Assembly: GCA_963727805.1 (NCBI GenBank)
Contig: CAVSHF010000003.1
Location: forward strand, 1,536,001 to 1,600,000
Reading direction: 5' to 3'
From: an uncultured Nitrospiraceae bacterium
Lineage (GTDB): Bacteria; Nitrospirota; Thermodesulfovibrionia; Thermodesulfovibrionales; Dissulfurispiraceae
Length of the DNA: 64,000 bases
The first letter of the stretch is position 1; each line of letters begins with the position of its first letter. Below the pieces are notes generated by a model. That model was given only the letters and a program-made list of their open reading frames with translations. It was not told the DNA's origin and ran no database searches. Below are positions 2,959-27,095 of this stretch, piece by piece. The position numbers and the translations under genes are program-made.

Positions 2959-2990
2959 GTAACAACTACGTAACAATAAGTCTGTATAAT
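2959..2990 (+). promoter_or_regulatory. Pho-box-like promoter of the GH1 gene (two clear half-sites plus TATAAT)
   Basis: GTAA 2959 and 2970, 11-nt spacer, TATAAT 2985-2990; ATG 6 nt downstream. Confidence 0.7.
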
Positions 2991-2996
2991 ATAGCG

Positions 2997-4232
2997 ATGA
3001 ATAAGAACTTCCTCTGGGGGGTTGCCACTTCTGCATTTCAGCTTGAAGGTTCGCCCCACGCAGACTGGTCGTCCTGGGACTCGATCCTCAGCCAAAATCC
3101 GGATGTTACCAATCACTATGCTCTCTACAAAGAGGACCTCTCCCTTCTGAAGGATCTCGGGGTTAATGCTTATCGCTTTTCTCTTGAATGGAGCAGGATC
3201 CAGCCTAAGGAAAATGCCTGGGACTCCTCGGTGATCGATCATTATCAGGAGATCATAGGGATACTGAAAAGCTACAATGTGGAGCCGATGCTCACCCTCC
3301 ACCATTTTACACATCCGCTCTGGTTCATTAAGAAATACCCATGGCACGATGACGCATCCGTGGAGATGTTTCTTGCATATGTCGAAAAAATTGTATCGGC
3401 TATCAAGGGAGTGTCATATTGGATTACCTTCAATGAGCCCTACGTCCTGCTGCTCGGCGGATATCTCGAAGGCTGCATGCCCCCGGGCATCAAAGACCCC
3501 GGCCTCGCTCTAAAGGCCTTGAAGAACATCCTTGTCTGCCATGCAAAGGCTTACGATATCATCCATAGGGCTGACCCCGCGGCTATGGTAAGCGTGTCGC
3601 ACAACATGGCCGCCCTTGCGCCTTGGAGCCGCTGGAACCCTTTCGACCGTGCCCTTGCGAAGATGGCTAAATATTTTTATAATCGCTCTCTTACCGATGC
3701 GTTTCTGACAGGTTATTTGAAGATCAAGTTCCCGTTCCGCAAAGAAGCACTGATAGAAGTCCCAATTAAGGGCAAGCTCGATTTCTTCGGAGTCAATTAC
3801 TACACCAGGGTGCATATACGCTTCAATCCCTTTAGGAAGATGGCTATCGAATTACGCCACCTGGACATTGACGGATACGGCCTCACCGATCTCGGATGGG
3901 AGATTCACCCTTACGGTCTCGAGAAGGTATTACGTTATGCCTCAGCTCTGGGGGTGCCTCTGATAATCACCGAAAACGGGATAGCCACGCGCAACGCCCA
4001 GAAGAAGATCGATTTCATGAGAAGGCATATCGACGCCGTCGAAAGGAGCATAAAAAATGGCATCGATGTTAGGGGATATTTCTACTGGTCCCTTATCGAC
4101 AACTATGAATGGCTCCAAGGCCTCGATGCCCGCTTCGGCCTCTATAGAGTTGACTTCAAGACCCTCAAACGCAAGCCCACCAACGCTGCCGCCTATTATT
4201 CTTATTTAATAAGGAGCAGGTCGGAGTTCTGA
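2997..4232 (+). CDS. Glycoside hydrolase family 1 beta-glycosidase
   Basis: FLWGVATSAFQLEG, YRFSLEWSRI, TFNEP (acid/base), ITENG (nucleophile), WSLIDNYEW. Confidence 0.95.
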   Translation: MNKNFLWGVATSAFQLEGSPHADWSSWDSILSQNPDVTNHYALYKEDLSLLKDLGVNAYRFSLEWSRIQPKENAWDSSVIDHYQEIIGILKSYNVEPMLTLHHFTHPLWFIKKYPWHDDASVEMFLAYVEKIVSAIKGVSYWITFNEPYVLLLGGYLEGCMPPGIKDPGLALKALKNILVCHAKAYDIIHRADPAAMVSVSHNMAALAPWSRWNPFDRALAKMAKYFYNRSLTDAFLTGYLKIKFPFRKEALIEVPIKGKLDFFGVNYYTRVHIRFNPFRKMAIELRHLDIDGYGLTDLGWEIHPYGLEKVLRYASALGVPLIITENGIATRNAQKKIDFMRRHIDAVERSIKNGIDVRGYFYWSLIDNYEWLQGLDARFGLYRVDFKTLKRKPTNAAAYYSYLIRSRSEF

Positions 4233-4264
4233 TAACAGCAATCTGCCGGTCGATTATCGCCATT

Positions 4265-4318
4265 TTCACCTAACCTTAACATAACCGCAACCTCCTTGTA
4301 ACCGTGCTTTCGTAAACT
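4265..4318 (+). promoter_or_regulatory. Pho-box-like promoter of the olsB-like operon
   Basis: TTCA 4265, TTAA 4276, GCAA 4287, GTAA 4298 (11-bp period), 11-nt spacer, TAAACT 4313-4318. Confidence 0.75.
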
Positions 4319-4344
4319 TTAAGAAAACACTCCAAGGAGATCAC

Positions 4345-5109
4345 ATGATCGAACAAAAGCGCAGCACCGTTACGCCTAAGAAGGAAAGTCAACTTATTGT
4401 AAAACGGGCGGACCATCAAAGCGAAATAGAAGCGGCGCTGAGACTCCGGTTCGAGGTCTTTAACGTCGAGATGAATGAAGGACTTCAATCTTCATACAGA
4501 ATTGGCCTTGACTGCGACGAATACGATCCCTTGTGTGACCACATGATAGTGGTCGATGCCGCGAAGAATATGATTGTCGGCACTTACCGGTTGCTCCGCG
4601 GGTCCGAGGCCGAAAAGACCCTCGGATATTATTCCGAAACCGAATTTGAGATATCTGCACTGAAAAGGCTGCATGGAGAGAAGCTGGAGCTCGGCAGGGC
4701 CTGTGTTCACAAGGATTATAGGGGGTCGGCTGTATTGAATCTAATGTGGAGCGGCATCGCAGACTATATCGACAAACATCGTATAGATTATCTTTTCGGC
4801 TGCGGCAGTATCCATACTATCAACCCGACTGTCATCAGCAGCATGTATGGATATTTCAAAATGAACTATCTGACAGATGAAACTTGCAGGGTGACTCCCC
4901 TGAAGCATGTTCCCGGATTCGATTCCGAGGCCGCTCCTGACAGGCGGTTGATAGCACAGCACCTGCCGCCACTTCTGGGCGCCTATTTGCGGGTCGGGGC
5001 ACGGGTTGCCGGCGAACCAGCCTTCGATGAGCAATTCGGTGTGAGCGATTTCCTGATCGTGCTCGACCGGGAGAAACTGCTTGAACGTTATAAGAATCGA
5101 TACTTTTAG
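4345..5109 (+). CDS. olsB: GNAT-family N-acyltransferase, OlsB-like (lyso-ornithine lipid synthase)
   Basis: ALRLRFEVF, D.DEYD..CDH, VGTYRLL, GYYSETEF, LELGRACVHKDYR, PPLLGAYLRVGA, PAFDEQFGVSD. Confidence 0.8.
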   Translation: MIEQKRSTVTPKKESQLIVKRADHQSEIEAALRLRFEVFNVEMNEGLQSSYRIGLDCDEYDPLCDHMIVVDAAKNMIVGTYRLLRGSEAEKTLGYYSETEFEISALKRLHGEKLELGRACVHKDYRGSAVLNLMWSGIADYIDKHRIDYLFGCGSIHTINPTVISSMYGYFKMNYLTDETCRVTPLKHVPGFDSEAAPDRRLIAQHLPPLLGAYLRVGARVAGEPAFDEQFGVSDFLIVLDREKLLERYKNRYF

Positions 5110-5116
5110 AAAGAAC

Positions 5117-5914
5117 GTGACATTGCTCAGGATATATAGGCTTCTTCTCATCATTCTGATGAGTGTATTATTCCTTGCTACTGGGATTGGTGTTCTCGTC
5201 TTTCTCATTGCTGGTAAGTCAGCACTTACGAAGGTCAGGGCGCGCTGCACCATGTGGTGGGCCAGGTCCATGTGCTACATTCTTGGCATCCGCATAGAAA
5301 AAAGCGGCGAAACTGAAGAGCAAAGCGGTAGTTTCACGGTCTGCAATCATATCAGCTATCTGGACATCTTCGTCGTAGGAAGCGTCAGACCCTCGAGTTT
5401 CGTGGCTAAGCAGGACGTCCGAAACTGGCCCCTTGCGGGATGGCTGGCAAGCCTTGCAGGCACAGTATTCATCAATAGGCAATCAAGGCGGGCTGCAATC
5501 GAAGCAATGAGAATGATGGAGCAGAAGATTGACAGCGGCGTAAATGTCGTGATATTTCCTGAAGGCACAACCTCCGATGGCTTTGTTATCAAGCCATTCA
5601 AGAGCACTCTGTTCAACCTTCCTGCATGCAGGAATATCACGGTGATTCCCGTCAGCATCAGGTATACAGGCATCGATGGAGAAGTGATGCCCCAAAACAG
5701 ACTCGACGAGATCGCATGGTATGGAGACATGCAGCTAGTGCCGCACTTATGGAATGTCCTCGGTCTTAAATCGATTGAAGCAATATTGCATTTCAATCCC
5801 AGCATTTCGCCAGTCGGCGAAAGTGTGCCACTGCCCGCCGCAAGAAAGCGTCTTTGTTCTCTTTCTTATGAGAGCATCGAGTCGGGATTTGCCCTTGCTG
5901 GCAGAAGCAATTAA
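5117..5914 (+). CDS. PlsC/OlsA-family acyltransferase
   Basis: NHISYLD (HxxxxD), FVAK, GTVFINR, FPEGTTSDG; directly after the olsB-like gene; GTG start at 5117 is approximate. Confidence 0.9.
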   Translation: MTLLRIYRLLLIILMSVLFLATGIGVLVFLIAGKSALTKVRARCTMWWARSMCYILGIRIEKSGETEEQSGSFTVCNHISYLDIFVVGSVRPSSFVAKQDVRNWPLAGWLASLAGTVFINRQSRRAAIEAMRMMEQKIDSGVNVVIFPEGTTSDGFVIKPFKSTLFNLPACRNITVIPVSIRYTGIDGEVMPQNRLDEIAWYGDMQLVPHLWNVLGLKSIEAILHFNPSISPVGESVPLPAARKRLCSLSYESIESGFALAGRSN

Positions 5915-6063: not shown

Positions 6064-6118
6064 TTAACCCGAACGTAACGCTCCCTTAATAATCGCGTAA
6101 CACAATAAACGTTAGCAT
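6064..6118 (+). promoter_or_regulatory. Pho-box-like promoter of the PHP-glycosyltransferase operon
   Basis: TTAA 6064, GTAA 6075, TTAA 6086, GTAA 6097; TAGCAT 6113-6118 (12-nt spacer). Confidence 0.75.
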
Positions 6119-6127
6119 TAAGCACTA

Positions 6128-6817
6128 ATGTTGCTCTGCGATTTTCACATTCATACGACATACTCCGATGGTTCAATCGAACTCAGTAAAGTTGTTGATC
6201 TTTACGGCCAGGCCGGCTTTGATGCCGTCGCAATCACAGACCATGTGGTAAACGAGGACAGCTCCATCGGTAAACTCGCACACCGTTTCGGATACACTGT
6301 CAATGAAAAAAACTTCGCAGAATACATGGAAACAATACAGTCTGAAGCAGCCAGGGCCTTGAACAAATACGGGATGCTGGTCATCCCGGGTATTGAGATA
6401 AGCAAAAACTATATCGACTCGGATAAGTCGGCACACATCCTGATCCTCGATCTGAAGGGGTTTGTTTCAGCCTGCTGGGATTATGAAAAAATATTTATGG
6501 AAGCAAAAAGACAGGACGCCCTCGTCGTCGCCTGCCATCCGCACACCATGTCGGATATGAGTAAGGACACGTACCACCTCTGGAACAACAGGGACCGGTA
6601 TGCGAAATACATCGATGCCTGGGAGATCGCCAACAGGGACGATGTGTTTAATGTGGTAAGCCTCAAGAAATACCCATATATCGCCAACAGCGATTTCCAC
6701 AAGGCTCGCCATCTCTACTCGTGGAAGACGCTCCTGAATTGCCAAAAAGAAGTCGGCGCGATCAAACAGTGCATACGCCATAACAAGGGTGTAGCAATAA
6801 CATTGTTCAGAAACTGA
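6128..6817 (+). CDS. PHP-domain phosphoesterase
   Basis: DFHIHTTYSDG, AITDH, PGIEI, ACHP, NSDFH metal-binding motifs. Confidence 0.9.
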   Translation: MLLCDFHIHTTYSDGSIELSKVVDLYGQAGFDAVAITDHVVNEDSSIGKLAHRFGYTVNEKNFAEYMETIQSEAARALNKYGMLVIPGIEISKNYIDSDKSAHILILDLKGFVSACWDYEKIFMEAKRQDALVVACHPHTMSDMSKDTYHLWNNRDRYAKYIDAWEIANRDDVFNVVSLKKYPYIANSDFHKARHLYSWKTLLNCQKEVGAIKQCIRHNKGVAITLFRN

Positions 6818-6832
6818 TTTAAGGAGGATACA

Positions 6833-8050
6833 ATGGTACTATTCCTCATTTTTGCGACATTAAGCATCATTGGGCTTCTTGCATATACAGCTCAGATATG
6901 GACCGTGCGCTCATATCGTTCCCTCCCCACGGTGCCCCCCTCGGGGGAAGATCATTCTTCCCCCCATTTTTCCCCACCGATCTCCGTTCTCAAGCCGCTA
7001 AAAGGACTTGACGACAACCTTTTCGATAACCTCGCAAGCTTCTGCCATCAGGATTATCCGCAATACGAGATCATCTTTTCTCTGCAGAATGAAAATGATC
7101 CGGCCTGCAAGGTGGCACGTTTGATAAAGGATAAATATCCCGAAAGGGACATAACCATCCATGTCGAGCGGTGCTCGTCAGGACTCAATCCGAAAGTAAA
7201 TAACCTGATCCCGGCATATCGGATATCTAAATATCCGTACATCCTTATAAGTGACAGCAACGTAACAGTAAACAGGCATTATCTTAAGGAGATCATCCGC
7301 GACATGGAAAACCCCGAGGTTGGATTGGTCAGCAACCTCATAAGAGGGATGGGGGGATATTCCGTCGGCGCCGTCTTTGAAAACCTGCATCTTAATACTT
7401 TCGTTATGGGAAGCGTCAGTTTTCTCGATAGGTGCCTCAAAATGCCATGCGTCGTCGGCAAATCGATGCTGATGAGAAAAGCCGATCTCGACGCTATCGG
7501 TGGCTTTATAGGTGTTAAGGACATCCTTGCCGAAGATTATGTTATCGGAAAGCGCATGCATGACAGCGGCAAAAGGGTTATCCTATCCAGACACATGATC
7601 GACAACGTCAACGAATACTGGGGGATCCGGAAATTCCTTAACCGGCATACCCGCTGGGGCAAATTGAGGTGGCATATAGGCGGCCCGAAATATTTCTCGG
7701 AACTGCTCTGTAATCCCGTGTTTATGGCATTTCTACCTCTGATCTTGCTTGGACCCACAAGACTGTCATTTGCCTTCGCAGCAACGGTAAGTCTCTGCAA
7801 GGCGATGGGAGACTTCATAATCGGCCGCCGGATAAGAACAGACTTAAAGGCTTCGTCATACGTTCTCGGTCCACTGAAGGATGTCCTGATCGGGTTCATC
7901 TGGTTTGTGCCGCTCTTAAGCAATACCGTCATCTGGAGGGGCAACAGATACATTATCGGTAAAGACTCGCAGCTTTCCTCCTGTCCGGAAACTGGAATAT
8001 TCTCCTGGAGATACAGGATATTCGATACTATAAAGGCGCGTCTGGCCTGA
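6833..8050 (+). CDS. Ceramide-glucosyltransferase/HpnI-like (GT21/GT2) membrane glycosyltransferase
   Basis: SVLKPLKG.D, NPKVNNL, ISDSN, GKSMLMR, LAEDY, RHTRW; N- and C-terminal TM helices. Confidence 0.85.
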   Translation: MVLFLIFATLSIIGLLAYTAQIWTVRSYRSLPTVPPSGEDHSSPHFSPPISVLKPLKGLDDNLFDNLASFCHQDYPQYEIIFSLQNENDPACKVARLIKDKYPERDITIHVERCSSGLNPKVNNLIPAYRISKYPYILISDSNVTVNRHYLKEIIRDMENPEVGLVSNLIRGMGGYSVGAVFENLHLNTFVMGSVSFLDRCLKMPCVVGKSMLMRKADLDAIGGFIGVKDILAEDYVIGKRMHDSGKRVILSRHMIDNVNEYWGIRKFLNRHTRWGKLRWHIGGPKYFSELLCNPVFMAFLPLILLGPTRLSFAFAATVSLCKAMGDFIIGRRIRTDLKASSYVLGPLKDVLIGFIWFVPLLSNTVIWRGNRYIIGKDSQLSSCPETGIFSWRYRIFDTIKARLA

Positions 8051-8130: not shown

Positions 8131-8184
8131 GTAACCAAACATTAACATTCCCTTCATGATGAGGTAATACCAGTGAGCTACAAT
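8131..8184 (+). promoter_or_regulatory. Pho-box-like promoter of the small Cys-rich gene
   Basis: GTAA 8131, TTAA 8142, TTCA 8153, GTAA 8164, 11-nt spacer, TACAAT 8179-8184. Confidence 0.8.
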
Positions 8185-8221: not shown

Positions 8222-8434
8222 ATGGAAACGATCCTTATGAATACATGCTGTCTGCAGCATGTGCTTGAAGCAAGGCAGCCCGAGATCTGTCCCTATCTCG
8301 ATACGGCAACGAACATCTGCGAAGCATCTCTCTCATCGATCACCACCGACGGGATCAGACGTGCCAGTTATTGCTCAACTGATAACTATGATAACTGCGC
8401 CCTGTTCATAGCAAAATCACTGAGAAGGAAATAA
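8222..8434 (+). CDS. Small cysteine-rich hypothetical protein (70 aa)
   Basis: GTGAGG SD before ATG 8222; CPY..C.AS..YC....DNC pattern; own promoter. Confidence 0.65.
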   Translation: METILMNTCCLQHVLEARQPEICPYLDTATNICEASLSSITTDGIRRASYCSTDNYDNCALFIAKSLRRK

Positions 8435-8602: not shown

Positions 8603-8656
8603 GTAACCAGATCTTAACATTCCCTTCATACCACGGTAATACAGCAAGGGTACAAT
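8603..8656 (+). promoter_or_regulatory. Pho-box-like promoter upstream of phoH (paralogue of the 8131 promoter)
   Basis: GTAA 8603, TTAA 8614, TTCA 8625, GTAA 8636, 11-nt spacer, TACAAT 8651-8656. Confidence 0.8.
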
Positions 8657-8940: not shown

Positions 8941-10185
8941 ATGAAAAGAACATACGTGCTGGACACAAACGTTGTTGTTCAAAACCCGAACGCAGTGACG
9001 ACATTCGATGAGCATGATGTTATAGTCCCTATGACAGTGATTCGTGAGCTAGACCAGATGAAAAAAGGGGCTACGTCGGTATCATACAGTGCACGAGCGG
9101 CCTTGCGTGTGCTGGCATCCCTGGTGGAGCAGGATGAGGTGAATCGAAGCGTCAACGTACCGTTGCCAGGTGGCGGCCAGCTCAGCATTGACTCGAGTTC
9201 GATTGGGGATGACCCCTCCCTTTGTCCCGATGACCAGATTATTGCAGTGGCACAGGAGTTAACAAAGCAAGGGAAGCCCGATGTCTGGCTTATCAGCAAG
9301 GACACGGCCGTTCGCCTTAAAGCCAGTGCCAAGGGTCTTAAAACTGATGACTATCGGCATGATCAGGCCCGGCTGCATGAAAAATATGGGCGTCTGCTCG
9401 TTGAAGATGAACCCGTTAATGGCATTAAATCGGTTCGGTACCGCCTTGCCGGTGACAGCATCTGGAAGATACGGGGGACCAATGAGAAAAAAGCCCGACG
9501 CACACGCGAAGTATACGGAATAACTGCCAAGACACCCGAACAAGATGCACTCATTGATGCGCTTACAGATCCAGAGATCGAATTTGTTTGTGTCACAGGA
9601 GTACCGGGCGGCGGGAAGACCCTTCTTGCGCTTGCCTGTGGGCTGCTGCAGACCCAGAAGAGGTCGCCGCTTTATGACCAATTGATTGTCGCACGCCCCG
9701 TAACTCCCCTCAGGGGCAATGATCTCGGATACTTACCTGGCGATGTGGAGGCGAAAATCGGTCCTCACATGTTGGCCATTTGGGATGCGCTTGAAATGCT
9801 ACTGCCCACCGCAAAGGGCGAAAAAGACGGAGTCGCATACGGAAGCTATCCCAATGCCAAACTGCTTATCGACCAGGGGAAGCTCGCCCTGGAACCTCTC
9901 ACCTTTATCAGGGGACGTTCCCGTCCAAGAATCTACTACATAATCGATGAAGCCCAGCAATTGTCGCGTTTAGAAGCCAAGACCATTATTGCACGTATGG
10001 GCGCTGGCGCAAAGCTTGTGTTTACTGGGGACTTAGGGCAGATTGACAATCCCTTCATGGACGAACGATCATCCGGATTGGCGTTGACAATCGAAGGTTT
10101 TATCAAAGAAGACAACTTTTGTTATCTCCACCTTTGCCAGTCGTGCCGATCGCGCCTTGCCGAACAGGCTGACACGCTTTTGTAA
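8941..10185 (+). CDS. phoH: PIN-domain PhoH-family ATPase (PhoH2-like)
   Basis: N-terminal PIN (VLDTNV..V.RELD..PDD.I..SKD), Walker A GVPGGGKT, LGYLPG, FIRGRS, IIDEAQ, TGDLGQID. Confidence 0.93.
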   Translation: MKRTYVLDTNVVVQNPNAVTTFDEHDVIVPMTVIRELDQMKKGATSVSYSARAALRVLASLVEQDEVNRSVNVPLPGGGQLSIDSSSIGDDPSLCPDDQIIAVAQELTKQGKPDVWLISKDTAVRLKASAKGLKTDDYRHDQARLHEKYGRLLVEDEPVNGIKSVRYRLAGDSIWKIRGTNEKKARRTREVYGITAKTPEQDALIDALTDPEIEFVCVTGVPGGGKTLLALACGLLQTQKRSPLYDQLIVARPVTPLRGNDLGYLPGDVEAKIGPHMLAIWDALEMLLPTAKGEKDGVAYGSYPNAKLLIDQGKLALEPLTFIRGRSRPRIYYIIDEAQQLSRLEAKTIIARMGAGAKLVFTGDLGQIDNPFMDERSSGLALTIEGFIKEDNFCYLHLCQSCRSRLAEQADTLL

Positions 10186-10186
10186 T
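10040..10186 (+). repeat. 147-bp direct repeat, copy 1 (3' end of phoH)
   Basis: Matches 11589-11735 with 3 mismatches. Confidence 0.95.
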
Positions 10187-10627: not shown

Positions 10628-11227
10628 TTAGATCAGTTTTTTTCTAATCCCCACCAGCCCCATCAGACCGGAGCCAAACAGCCAGGCTGCAGCCGGAATC
10701 GGGGTGGCTGTGGCGGGTGTGAGGCTTGCTGTAGCACTCCCACTCCCACCAGTTAAATATGACGCCCAATATGCATAAGTGTTTGGACCGGTGGCCCCTA
10801 TACCTATGGCGGGAACATTATCAGTGGAGCTATTTACAGACCCATTTACAACGAGAGGGTTATTAAGAAGCCCCGAACTTTGCACGAGTATCATCCCATT
10901 ATACTGATCAGCAGGATTAAATACAGGGTTTGAACCAGGAGATAACAGGTTATCAGCTCCACTTAAATTAGCACCAGCCCCATCACTATTTTGAGCAGTA
11001 AGCATCGGAGCAAGCAAGGCATAACTAATACCATTGTTTAAACTGCCATCTCCAGTTAGAGAAGCACCAGTAGCAAGTAACGGACCATTACCATTGGAAG
11101 CCGTGTAAAGTGTACCTGTAAAACCGTACTTGCCATCTGTACTAAGAAAGCTAAACGAGTAATCAGCATATGCCGAACTATAGCTGATACAGACCATAGC
11201 CACCATTAAGAACAATAATTTCTTCAT
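10628..11227 (-). CDS. VPLPA/PEP-CTERM-type exosortase substrate, secreted surface protein 1
   Basis: AGGAGG SD; signal peptide MKKLLF..SSAYA; G/S/N/T-rich body; C-terminal TPIPAAAWLFGSGLMGLVGIRKK. Confidence 0.9.
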   Translation of the reverse strand: MKKLLFLMVAMVCISYSSAYADYSFSFLSTDGKYGFTGTLYTASNGNGPLLATGASLTGDGSLNNGISYALLAPMLTAQNSDGAGANLSGADNLLSPGSNPVFNPADQYNGMILVQSSGLLNNPLVVNGSVNSSTDNVPAIGIGATGPNTYAYWASYLTGGSGSATASLTPATATPIPAAAWLFGSGLMGLVGIRKKLI

Positions 11228-11392
11228 TTTTCTCACCTCCTTTTTTTTAGATTTGATCAAATGACAACATTGTAGTTATTTGTATAATGTTATTCTTTTA
11301 CTGTTGCTTTATGCTCCTTACCTGATCGGAGTGTTACCCTTTGAATTTCAATTAGCCTGCACCAACATGGTCGGTGGTTTTGTCCGATGAAT

Positions 11393-11468
11393 AAAAAAAC
11401 CCGGAGCAGAACCTAACTGGTTCAAACTCCGGGTTTTCTGGTCCCTTAAAAGGTCAGCAAAATGCCCG
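11393..11468 (-). ncRNA. Conserved leader RNA plus overlapping terminator, copy 1 (candidate attenuator/riboswitch)
   Basis: CGGGCATTTTGCTGACC-TTTTAA-GGGACCAGAAAACCCGGAG...CTCCGGGTTTTTTT; homologous to 13916-13994 and 18871-18962. Confidence 0.75.
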
Positions 11469-11490: not shown

Positions 11491-11544
11491 ATTATACGAG
11501 TACCCTGTTACAAGATTATTACGAGATGATTACAAGACTATGAA
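11491..11544 (-). promoter_or_regulatory. Pho-box-like promoter of CTERM protein 1
   Basis: Minus strand TTCA, GTAA, GTAA, GTAA (plus coordinates 11541, 11530, 11519, 11508), 11-nt spacer, TATAAT 11496-11491. Confidence 0.8.
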
Positions 11545-13849: not shown

Positions 13850-13903
13850 GTAACGCAAATGTCACATTTAGTTCACTTTCTCGCAACAATTATTTGCTAT
13901 AGT
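13850..13903 (+). promoter_or_regulatory. Pho-box-like promoter of CTERM protein 2
   Basis: GTAA 13850, GTCA 13861, TTCA 13872, GCAA 13883, 11-nt spacer, extended -10 TG-C-TATAGT 13895-13903. Confidence 0.75.
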
Positions 13904-13915: not shown

Positions 13916-13994
13916 CGGGCACTTTGCTGACCTTTTTGGGGAACCAGAAAACCCGGATATGTCATTCCAGTCCAATGATATATCCGGGTTTTTT
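13916..13994 (+). ncRNA. Conserved leader RNA plus overlapping terminator, copy 2
   Basis: CGGGCACTTTGCTGACC-TTTTTGG-GGAACCAGAAAACCCGGATAT...ATATCCGGGTTTTTT; starts about 12 nt after the -10. Confidence 0.75.
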
Positions 13995-14036
13995 AGCTTC
14001 TTGAGGAATAAAATACAGTAAAATAAGGAGACTGCA

Positions 14037-17978: not shown

Positions 17979-17981
17979 ATT

Positions 17982-18299: not shown

Positions 18300-18302
18300 A
18301 GA

Positions 18303-18420: not shown

Positions 18421-18431
18421 AGCAAAATGGA

Positions 18432-18824
18432 TTACTGCGATGCCTCATGCAATCCCGCCTCCTGAGATACCTTAACGCCTGATGCATTCTCACCGCTGGG
18501 CAACATATCTAGCTGAAATGCTGCATTCTTTTCGTCAAAGATAATCTTGTAACCAAGGGTCTTAGATAGACCAATTCGAAACTTCCCCGATGAGAGATAA
18601 ACACTGCCGTCTGATAGTTCACCCACATCAACGCCCGTCGGGCCTCCCTTGATTTCAGCCAGCTTGTCATACCGGATACCTTCTCCGGCCTTATCAGCAA
18701 GAAACTTCCTCAGAATCATTTCGATCAAACATGAACGCGAGCATCCAGACTCACGGCTGATGTCATCGAGTAATTCCAACAGTTCCTGCTTTGTCCGGAA
18801 AGATACAGTCGCCGTTTTAAACAT
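18432..18824 (-). CDS. Ribbon-helix-helix (CopG-like) DNA-binding protein with extra C-terminal domain
   Basis: TATVSFRT..ELLELLDDISRESGCSRSCLIEMILRKFL; AGGAGG SD. Confidence 0.8.
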   Translation of the reverse strand: MFKTATVSFRTKQELLELLDDISRESGCSRSCLIEMILRKFLADKAGEGIRYDKLAEIKGGPTGVDVGELSDGSVYLSSGKFRIGLSKTLGYKIIFDEKNAAFQLDMLPSGENASGVKVSQEAGLHEASQ

Positions 18825-18870
18825 CTACAATCCTCCTTTCATCCATAATGTCAACCCAACCTGCCCCATT

Positions 18871-18962
18871 AAAAAAGCCCGAATCGATAAGAAAAGACTT
18901 CTTTTCTCGATCCGGGCTTTCTGGTGCCAAAGCAGGCGATTCTGCTGGTCAGCAAAGGACCC
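18871..18962 (-). ncRNA. Conserved leader RNA plus overlapping terminator, copy 3
   Basis: GGGTCCTTTGCTGACC-AGCAGAATCGCCTGCTTT-GGCACCAGAAAGCCCGGATCGA...TCGATTCGGGCTTTTTT. Confidence 0.75.
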
Positions 18963-18981: not shown

Positions 18982-19035
18982 ATTGTACCACCTGAGTATT
19001 ACCATTGAGTGACAAAGGCATTACAAAAGTTTTAC
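18982..19035 (-). promoter_or_regulatory. Pho-box-like promoter of the RHH / CTERM-3 operon
   Basis: Minus strand GTAA, GTAA, GTCA, GTAA (plus coordinates 19032, 19021, 19010, 18999), 11-nt spacer, TG-G-TACAAT. Confidence 0.8.
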
Positions 19036-20552: not shown

Positions 20553-21356
20553 CTAACAGCGGTTCAGCACAAACCCCAGGATCTTCTCCTTCGGAAGAAA
20601 CTGGATTGCTTTCTTTACATCATCCATCGAAGTTTTGCCGGCTTGTACAACGATAATTACATAGTCGACGAGAGGGGCGAGAGTCAGAACATCTGCCCCC
20701 GTAAGAATGGGAGGAACATCAAAAAGTATGTAACGTTCTGGATAGCGTCCTTTCATTTCAGCTATGAGTTCTTTCATACGCGGCGACCCGAGCATCTCGG
20801 CGCTTTCCAGGAAAGCCCTCCCTCCGGAAATCAGAGTCATCTTCTCAATCCCCGGCCAGGTGATCAGTTCGGAAACAGGTGATCCATCGGCAAGATAGTC
20901 TATCAGTCCCTTTTCACCCGCGCATCCAAGGTATTTATGAATACTTTGTTTCCTCAAATCACCGTCAACCAGCAGGACCGTATGCTGGAACTCCCGCGCA
21001 AATGTGAAGGCAAGATTAATGGCAGTAATCGTCTTGCCCTCTCGCGGTAAGGCACTTGTAACCATAATCGTATTGCCCCCGGTGCCTTGGCGTCGCCGCA
21101 GAATCTGCGTCCGCAGGACCCTGAAGGCCTCTGCTTCCGGAACATTGTCCAGGTAAGCCAGACACCGATTACACGCGATGAATCCCGGGTCCAGATGAAT
21201 GGTCCGGGATTGAGAATAAGTCGGCGATATCCATCCGGGCTTCTCCTTGTCGTTCTCTTCCAGATTGTTCTGCATGGAGGGCGTTGGGGCTTCTTCCTTT
21301 AGCGTCCCCGGCCTTTTTCTCAACAACTTTATAGTTTCCCTGATCTCATTTATCAT
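20553..21356 (-). CDS. CpsD/CapB-family bacterial tyrosine autokinase (EPS)
   Basis: EAFRVLRT, VTSALPREGKT, LLVDGDLR, FDVPP. Confidence 0.92.
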   Translation of the reverse strand: MINEIRETIKLLRKRPGTLKEEAPTPSMQNNLEENDKEKPGWISPTYSQSRTIHLDPGFIACNRCLAYLDNVPEAEAFRVLRTQILRRRQGTGGNTIMVTSALPREGKTITAINLAFTFAREFQHTVLLVDGDLRKQSIHKYLGCAGEKGLIDYLADGSPVSELITWPGIEKMTLISGGRAFLESAEMLGSPRMKELIAEMKGRYPERYILFDVPPILTGADVLTLAPLVDYVIIVVQAGKTSMDDVKKAIQFLPKEKILGFVLNRC

Positions 21357-21389
21357 TAGAACCGCTCCCTTTCAAGCTCTCTTTTAAAT

Positions 21390-22961
21390 TCACTGGGCCA
21401 AACGCCTGCCAACGCGTGCCCAGAGAACATCCAGATCCATCACGAAGAAATGAATAAACAGGACCGCAACCACCACTAGGACGACCACGGTGCCGGCGAG
21501 TACCTTCCGGCGCTGCTTCTTCCTCAGTTCATCCTCCAATGTGACAATCTCTGGTATCTCTGCGAGGACCGGGAAGGGACCTGCTATCGCCAGGTCTTCG
21601 GACCGGCGCGCTGAGTGATCACTGGTTTCTTGCAGAGCAGCAGTTCCAACGCCTGCTCCTATTCCAAGAATGAGCCCGATCAGGAGGATAACTGGGCGAT
21701 TTGGTCTTACAGGCTTCTCAGGCAGTCTCGCCGGGTCGATCAATGTAAATCGCTCACCGATATTGCCCTTTTCCAGCCCCTGGGCTACCTTTGCTTCCAT
21801 ATACTTTTTAGTAAGATCTTCATACTTGGCCTGCGTATTGTTTCTGTCCACCACCAGATTCTTGTAGCCTTCTTCCACCCTGGGAGACATTTCCATTCTT
21901 CTTTGGTATTCGTTTTTCTTTTTTTCGAGCTCGCTGATTTGTCGTTGGACCGAGCTTATCTCTGACTGCGTGCTTGCCAGTTGAGAATCGAGCGCTATGT
22001 AAGCAGGATTATCCGGTTTTTTCGCAATGGCTTTTTGCTTTTCAGGAGAATCCAGTATTTTTTCAAGTTCAGCGATTTCTTTTTTGGTTTTGATGACGTC
22101 TGGATAAGCATCAGAATAACGGGTCTTTTGGCTCGATAATGCCACCCTTAACTCCTTTAGGCGATCCTTGTTCTGGGTTTCAGCATCAGGGACCATACTT
22201 GCCAGCTGGGTCTGCAGGTAACTTTCCTTCTCCTTAAGGGTGCGCAGTTGATCGGTGAGCTGCTCATACATCCTATTATTCGCATCAAGAGTCTGGAGGT
22301 TAAACTGAAAAAGTTCAGGCAAAGCCAGGGGATTCTTCTCTTTGTAAACAGCTATCGCCTTCTCTAACGCGAGGAGCTTAGCCTGTACGGAATTCACTTC
22401 ATCTTGCAGGAATTTTGTGGTCCCTGACGTCTGCTCACTCGTGACCTTGATGTTCTCTTCAAGATACAGAGATGCCAGGACATTGGCAACCTGTTGGACC
22501 ACGACCGGATTTTTCCCTTCATATGAAACAGTAAATGCAATGGTCGCCGCCGTTTTCTGACCCGTCCGCCGGTCTATGACGTCTGCCATGACGGTTTCGA
22601 ACTTGATATCTTTTTTTCGCATGTTCTCGACTATCTCTTCGGTGGTGGATTTATTGCGCTTATCCGCATAGAGATTGAACTTGTTGATTATTTCAACAAG
22701 ACGCGCCGAGCTCATGATTCTCTGGTTGATCATCTGCAGGCGCTGTTCCGCATAACTGGTCACAGTCGCCATAACATAGTCACGTGAAATTTCCTGTTCC
22801 TCGATAAGGATTGTTGATGTGGAACGATAAACAGGGTCCCATATGAGAAGGACAAGCACCGAAAGAATGACCGCTGAGAGTGCCGGCACTAAAACCGCCC
22901 AACGTCGCCGCTTGATTATTTTGATAACATCTTCGATATTTATTGCTTTATTTTGCTCCAT
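21390..22961 (-). CDS. Polysaccharide co-polymerase / chain-length determinant (Wzc N-terminal type)
   Basis: TM-flanked coiled-coil periplasmic domain, YSDAYPDV, IDPARLPEKPVRPNR. Confidence 0.9.
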   Translation of the reverse strand: MEQNKAINIEDVIKIIKRRRWAVLVPALSAVILSVLVLLIWDPVYRSTSTILIEEQEISRDYVMATVTSYAEQRLQMINQRIMSSARLVEIINKFNLYADKRNKSTTEEIVENMRKKDIKFETVMADVIDRRTGQKTAATIAFTVSYEGKNPVVVQQVANVLASLYLEENIKVTSEQTSGTTKFLQDEVNSVQAKLLALEKAIAVYKEKNPLALPELFQFNLQTLDANNRMYEQLTDQLRTLKEKESYLQTQLASMVPDAETQNKDRLKELRVALSSQKTRYSDAYPDVIKTKKEIAELEKILDSPEKQKAIAKKPDNPAYIALDSQLASTQSEISSVQRQISELEKKKNEYQRRMEMSPRVEEGYKNLVVDRNNTQAKYEDLTKKYMEAKVAQGLEKGNIGERFTLIDPARLPEKPVRPNRPVILLIGLILGIGAGVGTAALQETSDHSARRSEDLAIAGPFPVLAEIPEIVTLEDELRKKQRRKVLAGTVVVLVVVAVLFIHFFVMDLDVLWARVGRRLAQ

Positions 22962-22992
22962 GCAGAGTCCTTTCCATTTTTTATAAATGCCA

Positions 22993-24222
22993 CTACTCTA
23001 AAACTGGATGCTGGATATACAAGCGCAGAGAGAAGAGATGCCTGTTCGCCTTAGTTGTCGTTGCCATATCGTTTACCATAACATAGTCGTACGACCCCTC
23101 TGCAAACATATCTCTTGAGAATTCGTAGCGAATCCATGGATTGATATGGAAGGTCCGCTGTTTGATCGTCTGTGAAGAAAATTTCTGCGAGTTCGAATCA
23201 TTAATAAAATATTCGGCAGTGAAATTGAGCAAGAATTCGTATGAAATCCTGTGCTGGGCCGAAAGAGCCAGGGAATCACGCACCGCTGCACCCCCCAGTC
23301 CGACTGCCGGCTGAACGAGTCTGCTGTAAGAGAGACTCCCCGAACCGACTTCACCCTTGAAATTCAGCGAAGCACTGCCTACCCAGCCCCAGCCGGCATT
23401 CTTGACTTGCTCACTCACCACCTGGTTACCAATCTGAATCGGAAATCCAAAGAAGAAGCCGTAGACAGGCTCCAGCTGTGTTATAGTTATATCCGCCCGG
23501 GTATGCTGGACCCCGCCATCAGCCTGAATGCTCCACACTTCGTTGAAATCCCGCGAAAAGCCGACAGTGCCCGTCACACTGCCTATGTCGGAGCCGATGA
23601 AAGAATAATCACTGTACGTCGCATTTATCCTTCCCTTCACAGCGGGGAAGTATGTGCCCAGATCATAGACAAGCCCTGCATTGACGTTATGGGATGTATC
23701 GTCAAGATACTTTTCACTGGTAAACTGGTCTCTGCCGTATCCATAGGATGCAGATAGCGCTGCCTTTTCGGTAAGCTGATAATCAGCCGACAGCGAAGAG
23801 GTAATATTTTGACGAGGTACTGCTGACAAAACAATGCCTGTGGTTTCTATGGCACGGTCAGGACGCGAATCTTTTATATAACCGGCTGCGGCTGATAATC
23901 TCAACAGTGGCGTAAGGAGATATTGTAAACTGCCGTTGTATGTCTGGTCTGTGGCACTTAGGTCCCTGTTGTTAGTGTATTCAATGCGGTCCAGTCTGGC
24001 TAGCACATCCATATTAATCCGCTCTGTGTTATTAACCATTTCGAGCCCGGGAGACAAAGTAGTGATAAAATCGTCTTTTTTATCACTTGAAGAAAGAAAA
24101 ATATTATTGTTGTATTCCTCTTTGACTGAAAGGCAAGGTACAATACGGAACTCATTTCCCCATGCAAAGGCGGGACAGGCAACCAGAAAGATAATAACAA
24201 GGATGATGGACCGATAACTCAT
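22993..24222 (-). CDS. Outer-membrane beta-barrel protein of the EPS/exosortase locus
   Basis: Signal peptide, EEYNNNIF..DDFITTLSPG, alternating aromatic beta-strand pattern. Confidence 0.75.
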   Translation of the reverse strand: MSYRSIILVIIFLVACPAFAWGNEFRIVPCLSVKEEYNNNIFLSSSDKKDDFITTLSPGLEMVNNTERINMDVLARLDRIEYTNNRDLSATDQTYNGSLQYLLTPLLRLSAAAGYIKDSRPDRAIETTGIVLSAVPRQNITSSLSADYQLTEKAALSASYGYGRDQFTSEKYLDDTSHNVNAGLVYDLGTYFPAVKGRINATYSDYSFIGSDIGSVTGTVGFSRDFNEVWSIQADGGVQHTRADITITQLEPVYGFFFGFPIQIGNQVVSEQVKNAGWGWVGSASLNFKGEVGSGSLSYSRLVQPAVGLGGAAVRDSLALSAQHRISYEFLLNFTAEYFINDSNSQKFSSQTIKQRTFHINPWIRYEFSRDMFAEGSYDYVMVNDMATTTKANRHLFSLRLYIQHPVLE

Positions 24223-24878
24223 CAGGGAATAACTACGACGTCACCCCGTTTGAGCCTGATATTCTGCTCAAGACGCTTGCCGTCAACCACCTCGTCATAC
24301 TCAAATGGCAATATAGTCGTTTCATTTTTTCCCCGTCTGAATACCTTGATCCTGTTCCTTTTTGCATAAACGTTAAGACCTCCGGCAGTGGCGAGAGCCT
24401 GCAGTACATCCACATTGGTATTCATGACGAATCGGCCGGGAGTATTGACTCTTCCAATGACGTAAATGATCAGACTGTTTACCTGCTTGATATCCATATA
24501 TAAGTTTGCCTCTGGGACATAAGGTTCGAGTCTTTTTTCAATCTCCGCTTTAAGTTGTGAAGCCGTCCTTCCAGCAGCCTGTATATCCCCGATCAGAGGG
24601 AATGAGATCAAGCCATCCGGTCGCACAGTGCACGAACGGGTTAAGGCTTCATCCTTCCACACGGCAATATCCAGAACATCCCCCGGTCCGATGATATACC
24701 CTCCTTCAGCGGGCACCTTTGTGGACGGTGACTCTGCATTCAGTGCAACGGCATTACCTTCGGACACTGATGCTGTAGTTGCAGAATTCTCAGCATCTTC
24801 GCCTTCAGCCCACATTATTGCTGATGAGGAAACTACCAGCATCCAAGCTATCATCAAAATCAACATGGTTCGAAGCAT
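24222..24878 (-). CDS. wza: Polysaccharide export protein (Wza/OPX, poly_export plus SLBB)
   Basis: YIIGPGDVLDIAVW, VRPDGLISFPLIG, LKRGDVVVIP. Confidence 0.9.
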   Translation of the reverse strand: MLRTMLILMIAWMLVVSSSAIMWAEGEDAENSATTASVSEGNAVALNAESPSTKVPAEGGYIIGPGDVLDIAVWKDEALTRSCTVRPDGLISFPLIGDIQAAGRTASQLKAEIEKRLEPYVPEANLYMDIKQVNSLIIYVIGRVNTPGRFVMNTNVDVLQALATAGGLNVYAKRNRIKVFRRGKNETTILPFEYDEVVDGKRLEQNIRLKRGDVVVIP

Positions 24879-24902
24879 TTTTTTTCGCTCCTCCTAAATT
24901 TA

Positions 24903-24936
24903 TACAGGGACGGGTAGTAAACAACCCGCCCCTGCA
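24903..24936. repeat. REP-like GC-rich intergenic hairpin
   Basis: CAGGGACGGGT-AGTAAACA-ACCCGCCCCTG. Confidence 0.45.
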
Positions 24937-24955
24937 TTGATCATTTTTTCAGCTT

Positions 24956-26950
24956 CTAATGGATTCCAGCCACGGTTTTCTCTGCCTCCTCCTTGCCCGG
25001 GAAACCGACTTTGGAATTCAGGGCAATCTGGAGATATTCTTTTGCCTTTCCTGTATTGCCTGCCCGGTAGTAGGCCATCCCCAGATGATAATTGATCACT
25101 GGGTTCCCGGAGGCCTTTGCCTGCGCCTTTGTGAGCGCAATCAGTGCCAGATTCAGATCGCCTTTTCGGTAATTGATCCAGCCTTCGGTATCGTATATGG
25201 CGGGATGATCCGGGTAAAGGGATTTAGCCTTCTCAACAAGAATAAGAGCACGGTCAAGATCCTTCTTGCCATTGCCGTATTCACTTAACAGGTAGGCCAG
25301 GTCGTTCGTAGTGGACCATATTTCAGGATGAATTCGAACTATGTGCTCCAATTCTGCGATAGCACGGTCCCATTTCTTCTGTGCACCATATAAGGCACTC
25401 AGTTTCACATAACTCAACGGATTATTCGGGACGCGCTTCTTGATATCCTCGTACGCCCCTTCAGCACGCTTAAAGTCACCCGCAAGCATCATAAGGTCTC
25501 CCAAATCTGCCCTCACATCCAGATCGTTCGGGTTCTTATCCAGGATGCTGCGATACTGGGATTCGGCATTCTTGAAATCTTTCTGCGCGGCGTAGATGCG
25601 GGCCATGGCTCTAATTATGTCCCTTGAATCTGGCGCAATTTTTAATGCATTTTGAAGAGTGTCGAAGGCAAGGTTCATTTCCTTATTCATAGCATGTGCC
25701 TCGGCAAGGCTGATGTAACCCGGTATAAATGTCTGCCTTTCGTTGATAACAGTCCGGAATGACGAAACTGCCTGAACGCCTTCCTGCTTTCTGAGATGGA
25801 TAGTTCCGGCGATATAATTGGCATCCACGTTCTTAGGACTTTCCTTGAGCACTTCATCCGCATACTTCTTCGCCTTGTCGATCTCCTGTCTTGAAAGGTA
25901 GAACTGCGCCAAAGAATTTTTTGCATGAAGGATGTTCGGATTCGCCGAATCTCTCTCCAATCCCAGACATTCCTTCAGCATGGACTCTGCTTGCTCCGGA
26001 CGGTTTGTACTTAAATAGAAAGCACTCAGAGCAAAGCGAATCTGGAAGCTTTTTGCATTCTGTCGTATTCCTTCCTTCAGCTGCTGCTCAGCTTCGGCAG
26101 GCTTATTTCTTGAAGCATAGAAATCCGCCGCCTGTATCCACCGGTCTTCCTTTTTCGGATCAGCAGATACAAATGACTTCAGGACATCGGCTGCCTGCGG
26201 CTCTTTGCCCAATCCCCAATAAATCCCGGCCAGAGCCAGGCGGTGCTGACTTACCTCAGGCTCTATTGCAATAACCTTTTGCATAAGGTTCACCGCTTCA
26301 TCAGACCTTTTGTTCTTCAGATAAAAATCAGCCAGGGCAAGATAAAGCGGAATCGCTTTCTCATTGGCCTTGATACCTTCACGCAAGGTATTCTCCGCTT
26401 TTTGTGTATCGCCTTTATAAGCGTATATTGAAGTCAGAAGTAAGTAGCCGTCAGGTTTATGGACGTCCCTGCCCACAACGGATTCCAAGAATTGCCGTGC
26501 GCTGTCGACATCCTTCTTTTGCAACAGGACAGCTCCTTTTAAGATCAGAGCATCCTCTTTTTTCGGTTCGGCTTTTAAAACAAGTTCCACCTTCTCCATT
26601 GCCTCATCCGTCTTACCGGCGCTCAATAAAAATCTGCCCAACTGGATATGGGCGTCCCAATGCTGCGGTGCCAATTCGATTACCTTTAAAAAGGTTCCGT
26701 AGGCCGCCCTGGGGTCTCCCGATTTCAAAGCGATCATCCCGAGCATGAAATATGCGTCGGCATATTTAAGGTCGATCTGAACGGCATTTTTGAACTCCAG
26801 TTTGGCTTTTACATAATCTCCCTTTTCATACAACTCCTTGCCTTTATTATAAAATTTGAGCTTTTTTTCTTCAGGACCACTACAGGCCGCTAAGATCGCG
26901 ACGATCAACAGCAGTAAAACTCCTATAAACAGCTTGTTTTTTCTGAACAT
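24956..26950 (-). CDS. TPR-repeat lipoprotein, PrsT-like (PEP-CTERM system)
   Basis: Lipobox LAAC; many TPR repeats; C-terminal NDLAYLL..DTEGWI.Y..YHLGMAY. Confidence 0.85.
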   Translation of the reverse strand: MFRKNKLFIGVLLLLIVAILAACSGPEEKKLKFYNKGKELYEKGDYVKAKLEFKNAVQIDLKYADAYFMLGMIALKSGDPRAAYGTFLKVIELAPQHWDAHIQLGRFLLSAGKTDEAMEKVELVLKAEPKKEDALILKGAVLLQKKDVDSARQFLESVVGRDVHKPDGYLLLTSIYAYKGDTQKAENTLREGIKANEKAIPLYLALADFYLKNKRSDEAVNLMQKVIAIEPEVSQHRLALAGIYWGLGKEPQAADVLKSFVSADPKKEDRWIQAADFYASRNKPAEAEQQLKEGIRQNAKSFQIRFALSAFYLSTNRPEQAESMLKECLGLERDSANPNILHAKNSLAQFYLSRQEIDKAKKYADEVLKESPKNVDANYIAGTIHLRKQEGVQAVSSFRTVINERQTFIPGYISLAEAHAMNKEMNLAFDTLQNALKIAPDSRDIIRAMARIYAAQKDFKNAESQYRSILDKNPNDLDVRADLGDLMMLAGDFKRAEGAYEDIKKRVPNNPLSYVKLSALYGAQKKWDRAIAELEHIVRIHPEIWSTTNDLAYLLSEYGNGKKDLDRALILVEKAKSLYPDHPAIYDTEGWINYRKGDLNLALIALTKAQAKASGNPVINYHLGMAYYRAGNTGKAKEYLQIALNSKVGFPGKEEAEKTVAGIH

Positions 26951-27040
26951 CGGGCTAACCTCCACTTTGTCGCAGTTGTTGGGGACGCACTGATTACTGG
27001 CGAGCCCCTCCCGGCAGACGAGCCCCTATAAAGAAGATGT

Positions 27041-27095
27041 ATTATTGCCTGACGACTATTACGGTAAGATGAAAGGCAGGTTAAACTTCTGTGAA
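27041..27095 (-). promoter_or_regulatory. Internal Pho-box-like promoter for the TPR lipoprotein to kinase genes
   Basis: Minus strand TTCA, TTAA, TTCA, GTAA (plus coordinates 27092, 27081, 27070, 27059), 12-nt spacer, AATAAT. Confidence 0.65.

What the first reader, a model, noticed from the sequence alone, without database searches (positions are those of the whole stretch)
2959..27095. Nine promoters share a Pho-box-like architecture (11-bp period half-sites, 11-12 nt spacer, -10): a hidden regulon
Seen: 4-nt cores GTAA/TTAA/TTCA/GTCA/GCAA recur at exactly 11-bp period and end 11 nt (twice 12 nt) before a -10 hexamer, with no canonical -35. Sites: 2959 (two cores), 4265, 6064, 8131, 8603, 11544 (minus), 13850, 19035 (minus) and 27095 (minus), the last eight with four cores each. 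All point toward the adjacent gene. Established: OmpR/PhoB-family regulators bind 11-bp direct repeats that replace the -35, and phoH and ornithine-lipid genes are known Pho-regulon members in other bacteria. Inference: one PhoB-like activator (not encoded in this window) drives these genes, probably under phosphate limitation.
Basis: partly seen in the sequence, partly recalled or inferred. Interest (0 to 1): 0.82.

Follow-up and report, generated by a model that had tools for sequence, protein, structure and literature searches.

The report
Pho-box regulon clustered on one chromosome stretch
Nine real, precisely spaced DNA repeat arrays in this Nitrospirota bacterium match the signal in front of its phosphate-uptake genes and are very likely binding sites of the familiar phosphate-starvation regulator PhoB, which would switch on phosphorus-free lipid, surface-protein and slime genes packed into about 4% of the genome, three of them through an extra, predicted RNA stop switch.

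Summary
Observation confirmed at all nine coordinates: [G/T]T[A/C]A[C/T] cores at 11-bp period, a -10 hexamer 11-12 nt later, no -35. The same array lies twice before this genome's pstSCAB-phoU operon, before its alkaline-phosphatase unit, and before 22 of 24 pstS-like loci of 19 relatives. The one OmpR-family protein with E. coli PhoB's recognition helix is encoded 6.5 kb left of the window, with a PhoR-like kinase and a Pit transporter. So this is a Pho regulon (about 0.9; binding untested), a known kind of system. Two additions. (1) 24 of 27 strong sites lie in one 180-kb stretch (4.6% of the genome); smaller clusters occur in relatives. (2) Three of the nine promoters read into an uncatalogued bulged-stem/terminator leader; all seven copies lie in that stretch, and a 44-residue protein that co-occurs with the leader is itself behind a Pho box here and in three other genera. 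That suggests a PhoB-driven feed-forward antitermination gate on exosortase-sorted surface proteins (about 0.35). Earlier notes of this scan already describe clustered Nitrospirota Pho regulons.

The parts
2959..2990 (+). Pho-type promoter, two GTAACA cores and -10 TATAAT; predicted start falls on the ATG at 2997 (leaderless mRNA, inferred)
2997..4232 (+). GH1-family glycoside hydrolase; homologue lies in the pst cluster of G006, G013, G015, G019
4265..4318 (+). Pho-type promoter, four cores, -10 TAAACT
4345..5914 (+). olsB-like and olsA-like acyltransferases (ornithine-lipid pair; best NCBIfam hits, below curated cut-offs)
6064..6118 (+). Pho-type promoter, four cores, -10 TAGCAT at 12 nt; near-leaderless; conserved in G003
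6128..8050 (+). PHP metallohydrolase plus GT21 (HpnI-like) glycosyltransferase; likely phospholipid-to-glycolipid remodelling (inferred)
8131..8184 (+). Pho-type promoter, four cores, -10 TACAAT; conserved in G003
8222..8434 (+). 70-aa Cys-rich protein, no Pfam match; paralogues sit behind Pho boxes next to pstS here and in relatives
8603..8656 (+). Pho-type promoter, a duplicate of 8131, facing PIN-PhoH; not found in G003
8941..10185 (+). PIN-PhoH (PhoH2-type) protein
10628..11260 (-). secreted protein with VPLPA/PEP-CTERM-like tail (read from the translation; no family hit)
11391..11467 (-). leader RNA copy: bulged stem overlapping an intrinsic terminator
11491..11544 (-). Pho-type promoter, four cores, -10 TATAAT
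13850..13903 (+). Pho-type promoter, four cores, -10 TATAGT
13917..13997 (+). leader RNA copy: bulged stem overlapping an intrinsic terminator
14037..14714 (+). secreted protein with VPLPA/PEP-CTERM-like tail (weak VPDSG-CTERM hit, E 0.056)
17355..17978 (-). secreted protein with VPLPA/PEP-CTERM-like tail, downstream of the 19035 promoter
18432..18824 (-). 130-aa protein with weak ribbon-helix-helix hit (E 0.017), first gene after the 18962 leader; conserved in G003
18869..18962 (-). leader RNA copy: bulged stem overlapping an intrinsic terminator; conserved in G003
18982..19035 (-). Pho-type promoter, four cores, -10 TACAAT; conserved in G003
20553..26965 (-). exopolysaccharide export unit: PrsT-like TPR protein, Wza-like, beta-barrel, Wzc-like, kinase
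27041..27095 (-). Pho-type internal promoter, four cores, weak -10 AATAAT at 12 nt; conserved in G003
51432..53090 (-). exosortase XrtD (VPLPA-CTERM-specific, above curated cut-off), likely sorts the CTERM proteins
63600..63638 (-). tenth four-core array, before a Porin_5 gene at the head of the long EPS gene run; conserved in G003; -10 degenerate here

Best explanation
The nine arrays are 11-bp-period repeats placed just before -10 hexamers in place of a -35, the same array precedes the phosphate-transporter operon, and they are likely Pho boxes that would be bound by the genome's single PhoB-like regulator to switch these genes on when phosphate runs short. Steps: (shown) motif, phase and position; same motif before pstSCAB-phoU and alkaline phosphatase; a PhoB-like regulator with PhoR-like kinase, DUF47 and Pit encoded 6.5 kb left of the window. 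(From established PhoB biology, inferred here) low Pi sensed through Pst/PhoU activates PhoR; PhoB~P binds head-to-tail, one dimer per two repeats, two dimers on a four-core array; the promoter-proximal dimer covers the -35 region and recruits sigma-70 polymerase through its W-G-x-x-V-Y-V-E loop. (Inferred from gene content) output is P scavenging, replacement of phospholipids by ornithine lipids and glycolipids, and a surface programme of EPS, exosortase-sorted proteins and a two-partner-secreted filamentous protein. Most of the regulon is clustered: a conserved pst-centred core, here split and enlarged by an accessory surface module that carries its own boxes.
For: Sites confirmed and non-random. 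Two arrays before pstS rank 2nd and 3rd genome-wide with a window-trained matrix; pstS, pstC, pstA, pstB, phoU pass NCBIfam cut-offs. 22 of 24 pstS-like loci from 19 relatives in several families have an array above 14 bits; 0 of 24 at periods 9, 10, 12, 13. Two genomes with neither a PhoB match (E<=1e-60) nor a PstS match have 0 and 3 pattern rows, the three being TTCA-type repeats. Of six OmpR-family genes only C3:1528779-1529486 has RTVDVHIRRLR; its effector domain hits E. coli PhoB best in the PDB, with that helix identical and W184, G185, V190, E191 kept (these residues contact polymerase per PMC3348028). PhoB homologues lie next to pstS in G006, G010, G012, G019, G020, G025. Orthologous arrays in G003 keep 258 of 280 core bases but 170 of 252 spacer bases. 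Published geometry matches: 11-nt units (PMC4415409), ending about 10 bp before the -10 (PMC1906773); D. vulgaris PhoB core (c/t)GT(n)AC (PMC3333781). Ornithine-lipid and glycolipid genes matter under Pi limitation in Desulfovibrio (PMC5193443).
Against: No binding, TSS or expression data: the one RNA run found gave only 18 short contigs of mixed identity. The regulator and kinase score below the curated cut-offs for PhoB (278 vs 296) and PhoR (290 vs 334); full-length PDB best hits are RegX3 and MtrA. No box before aroK-aroB-phoB-phoR-DUF47-pit in this genome. D192 of the E. coli contact loop is Pro here. The pstS-adjacent PhoB homologues of relatives are only 55-61% identical to this protein, and no tree was built. 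The core also fits the recalled WalR consensus. The core-versus-spacer figure is inflated because pairs were chosen by their score. Many targets (EPS, TPS protein, SMR pump, cytochrome P460, P-type ATPase neighbours) have no direct phosphate role.
Confidence: 0.9

Rival explanations
1. The arrays are bound by another OmpR-family regulator (WalR-like envelope regulator, BaeR/CpxR-like, CusR-like or KdpE) and mark an envelope-stress regulon that happens to include pst.
For: Many targets are envelope genes; YycF/WalR is the second-best NCBIfam and PDB hit of the candidate regulator; recalled WalR consensus TGT(A/T)A(A/T/C)-N5 fits the core.
Against: YycF 269 bits vs cut-off 340 and WalK 287 vs 725; no four-core array near any of the other five regulators or the two kdp loci (best 4-core scores below 0); the array is tied to pstS in 19 of 19 relatives with a strong PstS match; the candidate's operon holds DUF47 and Pit.
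Confidence: 0.06
2. The core sites are PhoB boxes, but the sites in the EPS/PEP-CTERM module are relics or respond in practice to another cue, so the surface genes are not phosphate-controlled.
For: Only 32 of 105 leader copies from metagenomes have a strong array upstream; 63638 and 27095 have weak -10 hexamers; much of the stretch is decayed or interrupted by transposase fragments; the terminators are predicted to be off by default.
Against: The arrays at 19035, 27095 and 63638 are conserved in G003 with diverged spacers; arrays precede the same module's genes in G042, G047 and G059 of other families.
Confidence: 0.15
3. Chance or low-complexity repeats in AT-rich intergenic DNA.
For: One 11-bp tandem repeat at C3:2009657-2009697 scores like a site.
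Against: 0 hits in 200 shuffles; sharp period-11 peak; fixed -10 spacing out of sample; conservation before pstS.
Confidence: 0.01

Closest known systems
E. coli PhoB/PhoR Pho regulon and Pho box (PMC4415409, PMC1906773, PMC3348028; passages read)
   Same: 11-nt direct-repeat units, position over the -35 region about 10-12 nt before the -10, pstSCAB-phoU and alkaline phosphatase as targets, identical recognition helix.
   Different: Core is [G/T]T[A/C]A[C/T]A rather than CTGTCAT; four units are the rule; no box before phoBR here; regulon physically clustered; EPS/exosortase cargo.
Desulfovibrio vulgaris PhoB DVU1083 regulon (PMC3333781; passages read)
   Same: Core (c/t)GT(n)AC; pstS, phoU and EAL-domain targets.
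   Different: Described there as a two-repeat box with a 4-bp spacer; the passages read report no chromosomal clustering or surface-protein module.
Cyanobacterial SphR box CTTAACCT (PMC1906773; passages read) and Bacillus subtilis PhoP box (four TT(A/T/C)ACA repeats; consensus recalled, not found in the passages read)
   Same: TTAAC-type core, three or four units at 11-bp period; SphR also lacks autoregulation in most genomes.
   Different: Different phyla; the proximal unit here is mostly GTAAC.
Protein-dependent antitermination (BglG/LicT with RAT RNA; recalled) as the model for the leader
   Same: A conserved bulged stem whose 3' strand is the 5' strand of an intrinsic terminator; terminator is the default fold.
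   Different: No Rfam match; candidate partner is a 44-aa helix-plus-hairpin protein with no Pfam or structural match; it would be controlled by transcription from a Pho box, not by PTS phosphorylation.

Membership tests
Pho box / PhoB regulon | Two or more 11-nt direct-repeat units | tested here: met
   2 or 4 units, period 11 only
Pho box / PhoB regulon | Array ends about 10 bp before a sigma-70 -10 and replaces the -35 | tested here: met
   -10 at 11-12 nt after the 4-nt core, -35 with 3-5 mismatches (sequence only, no TSS)
Pho box / PhoB regulon | Same motif before pstSCAB-phoU and a phosphatase | tested here: met
Pho box / PhoB regulon | Regulator with PhoB recognition helix, paired with a PAS-HisKA kinase, linked to phosphate genes | tested here: met
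Pho box / PhoB regulon | Regulator and kinase pass curated PhoB/PhoR family cut-offs | tested here: inconclusive
   PhoB is the best hit but 278 < 296; PhoR 290 < 334, PnpS 371 < 400
Pho box / PhoB regulon | Autoregulation of phoBR (E. coli; not general per PMC1906773) | tested here: not met
   no array before the operon in this genome; an array does precede the phoB unit in G006 and G019
Pho box / PhoB regulon | PhoB~P binds the arrays and genes are induced by Pi starvation | not testable with these tools
   one search gave no usable expression signal
WalR/WalK regulon | Regulator and kinase are WalR and WalK | tested here: not met
   269 vs 340 and 287 vs 725 bits
KdpE, BaeR-like or CusR-like regulon | Motif at the regulator's own locus or adjacent target operon | tested here: not met
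Known Rfam cis-regulatory RNA (leader element) | Match to an Rfam model | tested here: not met
   no match at E<=1 in window 1-30000
RAT-type protein-dependent antiterminator | Antiterminator stem overlaps and excludes the terminator | tested here: met
   (prediction plus one clearly covarying pair)
RAT-type protein-dependent antiterminator | The protein binds the stem and causes read-through | not testable with these tools
   only co-occurrence and adjacency

The most novel reading that the evidence does not exclude
PhoB runs a two-layer circuit: it starts transcription at the surface-module promoters and also turns on a 44-residue RNA-binding protein that holds the conserved bulged stem and so blocks the overlapping terminators. 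This coherent feed-forward gate would let EPS-associated, exosortase-sorted proteins and the giant two-partner-secreted protein appear only under sustained phosphate starvation, and the whole module travels between Nitrospirota lineages pre-wired to Pho boxes and settles inside the Pho cluster.
Probability: 0.35. Interest if true: 0.75.

Novelty: new member of a known kind. Interest (0 to 1): 0.42.

Why it matters
It gives a precise Pho-box model for Thermodesulfovibrionales, for which my literature searches listed no description, and lets phosphate stress be read from promoters of uncultured genomes. It ties unannotated genes (small Cys-rich proteins, a GH1-PHP-GT21 lipid module, a PHP-GT4 fusion) and a biofilm-type surface programme to phosphate starvation. 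The switch itself is textbook, and this scan has noted clustered Nitrospirota Pho regulons several times. What this genome adds is the scale (about 160-180 kb) and the link between the Pho boxes and an uncatalogued leader/small-protein pair, which makes that candidate antitermination system testable with a known inducing signal.

Tried and rejected
Rfam scan of window 1-30000: nothing. RNA evidence: one metatranscriptome with 0.08 of the words; 18 contigs laid, mostly 90-99% alike, unable to show starts or levels. Recent foreign-island origin of the cluster: tetranucleotide composition is ordinary except for the TPS gene block and one block near 1.70 Mb, so not supported. NusG paralogue as the leader's antiterminator: the second NusG-family gene lies at C3:534 kb in another polysaccharide locus, far from all leader copies; not excluded, not favoured. 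YezD/DUF2292 identity of the small protein: no match. Fold searches of its model (pLDDT 87, helix plus hairpin): no match at E<=0.001, best Z 3.2; this shows neither kinship nor a new fold. Atlas look-ups: only unnamed clusters. mis-oriented four minus-strand loci and undercounted; one search replaces it (the relatives matrix was built from the 24 arrays seen). Hits at C3:2009657/2009697 are a tandem repeat and are treated as false positives but kept in the counts. The generic promoter scan does not list these -10 hexamers, as expected without a -35. Literature searches for the leader or small protein, for clustered Pho regulons and for the WalR consensus listed nothing directly relevant; only the listings were seen, and most subscription papers are not in the library. 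No supplements were read; the motif tables of PMC3333781 are in supplements.
Full report
Observation. Each is a run of [G/T]T[A/C]A[C/T] cores at 11-bp period, two at 2959 and four elsewhere. A -10 hexamer starts 11 nt (seven sites) or 12 nt (6064, 27095) after the last 4-nt core, and the best -35 candidate has 3-5 mismatches. A matrix trained on 11 sites outside the window finds 9 sites above 14 bits in the window's intergenic DNA and none in 200 shuffles. Period 11 gives 31 genome positions above 20 bits; periods 8-10 and 12-14 give 0-4. Sites 8131 and 8603 are duplicates (40 of 57 bases), and a tenth array lies at 63638.

Organism and regulator. The window is C3:1536001-1600000 of a 3.9-Mb genome. 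The closest named records of its regulator are Dissulfurispiraceae and other Nitrospirota. There are six OmpR-family genes. One lies 6.5 kb left of the window in the order aroK-aroB-regulator-kinase-DUF47-Pit. PhoB is its best NCBIfam hit, though under the cut-off (278 vs 296; kinase PhoR 290 vs 334). Its effector domain hits E. coli PhoB best among solved structures, with the helix RTVDVHIRRLR identical and W184, G185, V190, E191 kept, D192 replaced by Pro. The other five proteins have different helices and no array near their loci. There is no array before phoBR itself.

Phosphate assignment. With a matrix trained only on the window, two arrays before pstS rank second and third in the genome; another faces the DUF3047/alkaline-phosphatase unit. 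The pstS, C, A, B and phoU genes pass curated cut-offs. Of 30 loci returned for PstS in relatives I left out the genome's own and five weak matches; 22 of the other 24, from all 19 genomes, carry an array above 14 bits within 500 bp upstream, against 0 of 24 at other periods and 1 of 24 on the opposite strand. Two genomes lacking both PhoB and PstS matches have no GTAAC-type array (0 rows in G028, 3 TTCA-type rows in G024). Fourteen orthologous arrays in same-genus G003 keep 92% of core bases and 67% of spacer bases (biased upward by selection on score). This fits the published Pho box: two 11-nt units with species-specific cores (PMC4415409), about 10 bp before the -10 (PMC1906773), core (c/t)GT(n)AC in Desulfovibrio (PMC3333781). 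For each of these, and for PMC3348028, PMC5193443 and PMC11522486, I read only passages returned by term searches.

Cargo. In the window: a GH1 hydrolase, an olsB/olsA-like pair, PHP plus GT21, a 70-aa Cys-rich protein, PIN-PhoH, three CTERM-tailed secreted proteins, an EPS export unit and a porin. Beyond it: ExbBD-TonB, a 3,768-aa two-partner-secreted protein, an EAL/GGDEF protein, an SMR pump, cytochrome P460, a sugar-nucleotide operon, a PHP-GT4 fusion, more Cys-rich small proteins and pst. Ornithine-lipid and glycolipid synthases are needed for Pi-limited growth of Desulfovibrio alaskensis (PMC5193443), so lipid replacement is the likely job of olsBA and the PHP/glycosyltransferase genes; that is inference.

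Clustering. With a matrix built from 24 arrays before relatives' pstS genes, 24 of 27 hits above 18 bits (26 of 32 above 14) lie in C3:1.525-1.705 Mb, which holds 4.6% of the genome and of its intergenic DNA. The binomial P near 1e-29 overstates, since sites are not independent and the interval was drawn after seeing them. Plausible outside sites are C3:653408 (second EPS locus) and C4:91193 (arsC-like gene, whose homologue sits in the Pho cluster of G019). In relatives the best 50-kb stretch holds 4 of 6 (G015), 4 of 5 (G006), 5 of 5 (G019), 3 of 3 (G027) but only 7 of 19 (G013) pattern sites; in G003, 16 of 39 rows fall in one 97-kb stretch and the rest are spread over several places. A core of pst-phoU, GH1, PHP (with GT21 in most), Cys-rich genes and often the EAL gene, olsBA or phoBR is contiguous in G006, G013, G015 and G019. 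Here it is split by roughly 100 kb of surface genes with their own boxes. Composition does not mark the stretch as recently foreign.

Second layer. Directly after the -10 of 11544, 13850 and 19035 lies a conserved leader followed by an intrinsic terminator. The genome has seven copies, all in the cluster and all downstream of an array: four directly behind strong arrays, two behind the array at C3:1621853, one behind a weak array before the TPS gene. Rfam has no match. A metagenome scan gave 124 loci, 107 distinct; many precede CTERM-tailed or EPS genes, 81 of 107 have the terminator, and 32 of 105 with enough upstream DNA have an array above 14 bits, against 4 in controls. One pair outside the search pattern's fixed letters covaries (C-G 80, U-A 24, other 3); on 59 aligned copies 95.6% of cells pair, against 24-63% for slid controls, but 8 of the 13 pairs were fixed by the pattern. 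The stem's 3' strand is the terminator's 5' strand, and the terminator is predicted 8-12 kcal/mol more stable in six of seven copies. Between the 1621853 array and a leader lies a 44-aa ORF with 36 homologues, no Pfam match and a helix-hairpin model. Protein and leader occur together in G000, G003, G042, G047 and G059 (there by a relaxed pattern) and were not found in the other genomes of the 120- and 30-genome samples, apart from one E 0.0075 protein hit. Seven of the ten gene copies in these five genomes have an array above 14 bits upstream, one scores 12, one has two cores plus a -10, one has none. That the protein binds the RNA is not shown; a metabolite-sensing or NusG-paralogue mechanism remains open.

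Mechanism, in order. Shown: motif, phase, targets, regulator gene, leader anatomy, co-occurrence. Inferred from established PhoB biology: PhoR phosphorylates PhoB at low Pi, dimers line the arrays and recruit sigma-70 polymerase. Inferred from anatomy only: antitermination by the small protein, giving a delay or AND gate on the surface genes.

Verdict. A real Pho regulon, new member of a known kind. Earlier unchecked notes of this scan report the same clustered regulon in other Nitrospirota and a similar leader/small-protein pair elsewhere; they were leads, and the numbers above are my own. Interest 0.42; the feed-forward reading has probability about 0.35 and would deserve about 0.75.

Noticed in passing
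G000:C3:1621598-1621732 (-) and paralogue C3:1617928-1618263 (-); loci L014, L282, L289: 44-aa protein and a longer paralogue, each behind a Pho-type promoter; candidate antiterminator for the leader RNA.
   Followed up: yes
window 8222-8434; L016:7848-8063, L016:8415-8585; C3:1659892; C5:1165259: Family of 55-80-aa proteins with a CP[YH]L...C...C...C pattern, several subfamilies, mostly behind Pho boxes next to pstS across the order; no Pfam match; Atlas cluster of 519 unnamed, mostly Nitrospirota members. Possibly metal-binding regulators.
   Followed up: partly
window 2985-2999 and 6113-6130: Predicted leaderless (GH1) and near-leaderless (PHP) mRNAs; the PHP spacing is kept in G003 and G006.
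   Followed up: partly
window 10073-10190 and 11630-11735: The 3' end of the PIN-PhoH gene is duplicated about 1.5 kb downstream, flanking the CTERM gene and its promoter; suggests how the cassette was inserted.
   Followed up: no
window 17980-18430: Two tandem, similar stretches between the RHH-like gene and the CTERM gene; the first holds a short ORF resembling the RHH protein's C-terminal half.
   Followed up: no
window 15712-16473 and 54909-56718: DsbC-like gene and heparinase II/III-like gene each appear split into two ORFs.
   Followed up: no
L015:2087-9284 (C3:1639087-1646284): Cluster of HMA_2-domain proteins, a P-type ATPase and a second-type metK inside the Pho stretch; the same block lies beside pst in G013 and in G003's cluster.
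   Followed up: no
L014:1940-3442 (-): 500-aa secreted protein with a weak PstS-like (PBP_like_2) hit between the CTERM gene and the TPS genes; conserved with the module in G042, G047, G059.
   Followed up: no
G000:C3:1622096 and 1625644 (+): Two near-identical four-core promoters with no clear gene downstream; possible small RNAs or relics.
   Followed up: no
G000:C3:533911-534447 (-): NusG paralogue at the head of an O-antigen/ABC export locus.
   Followed up: partly
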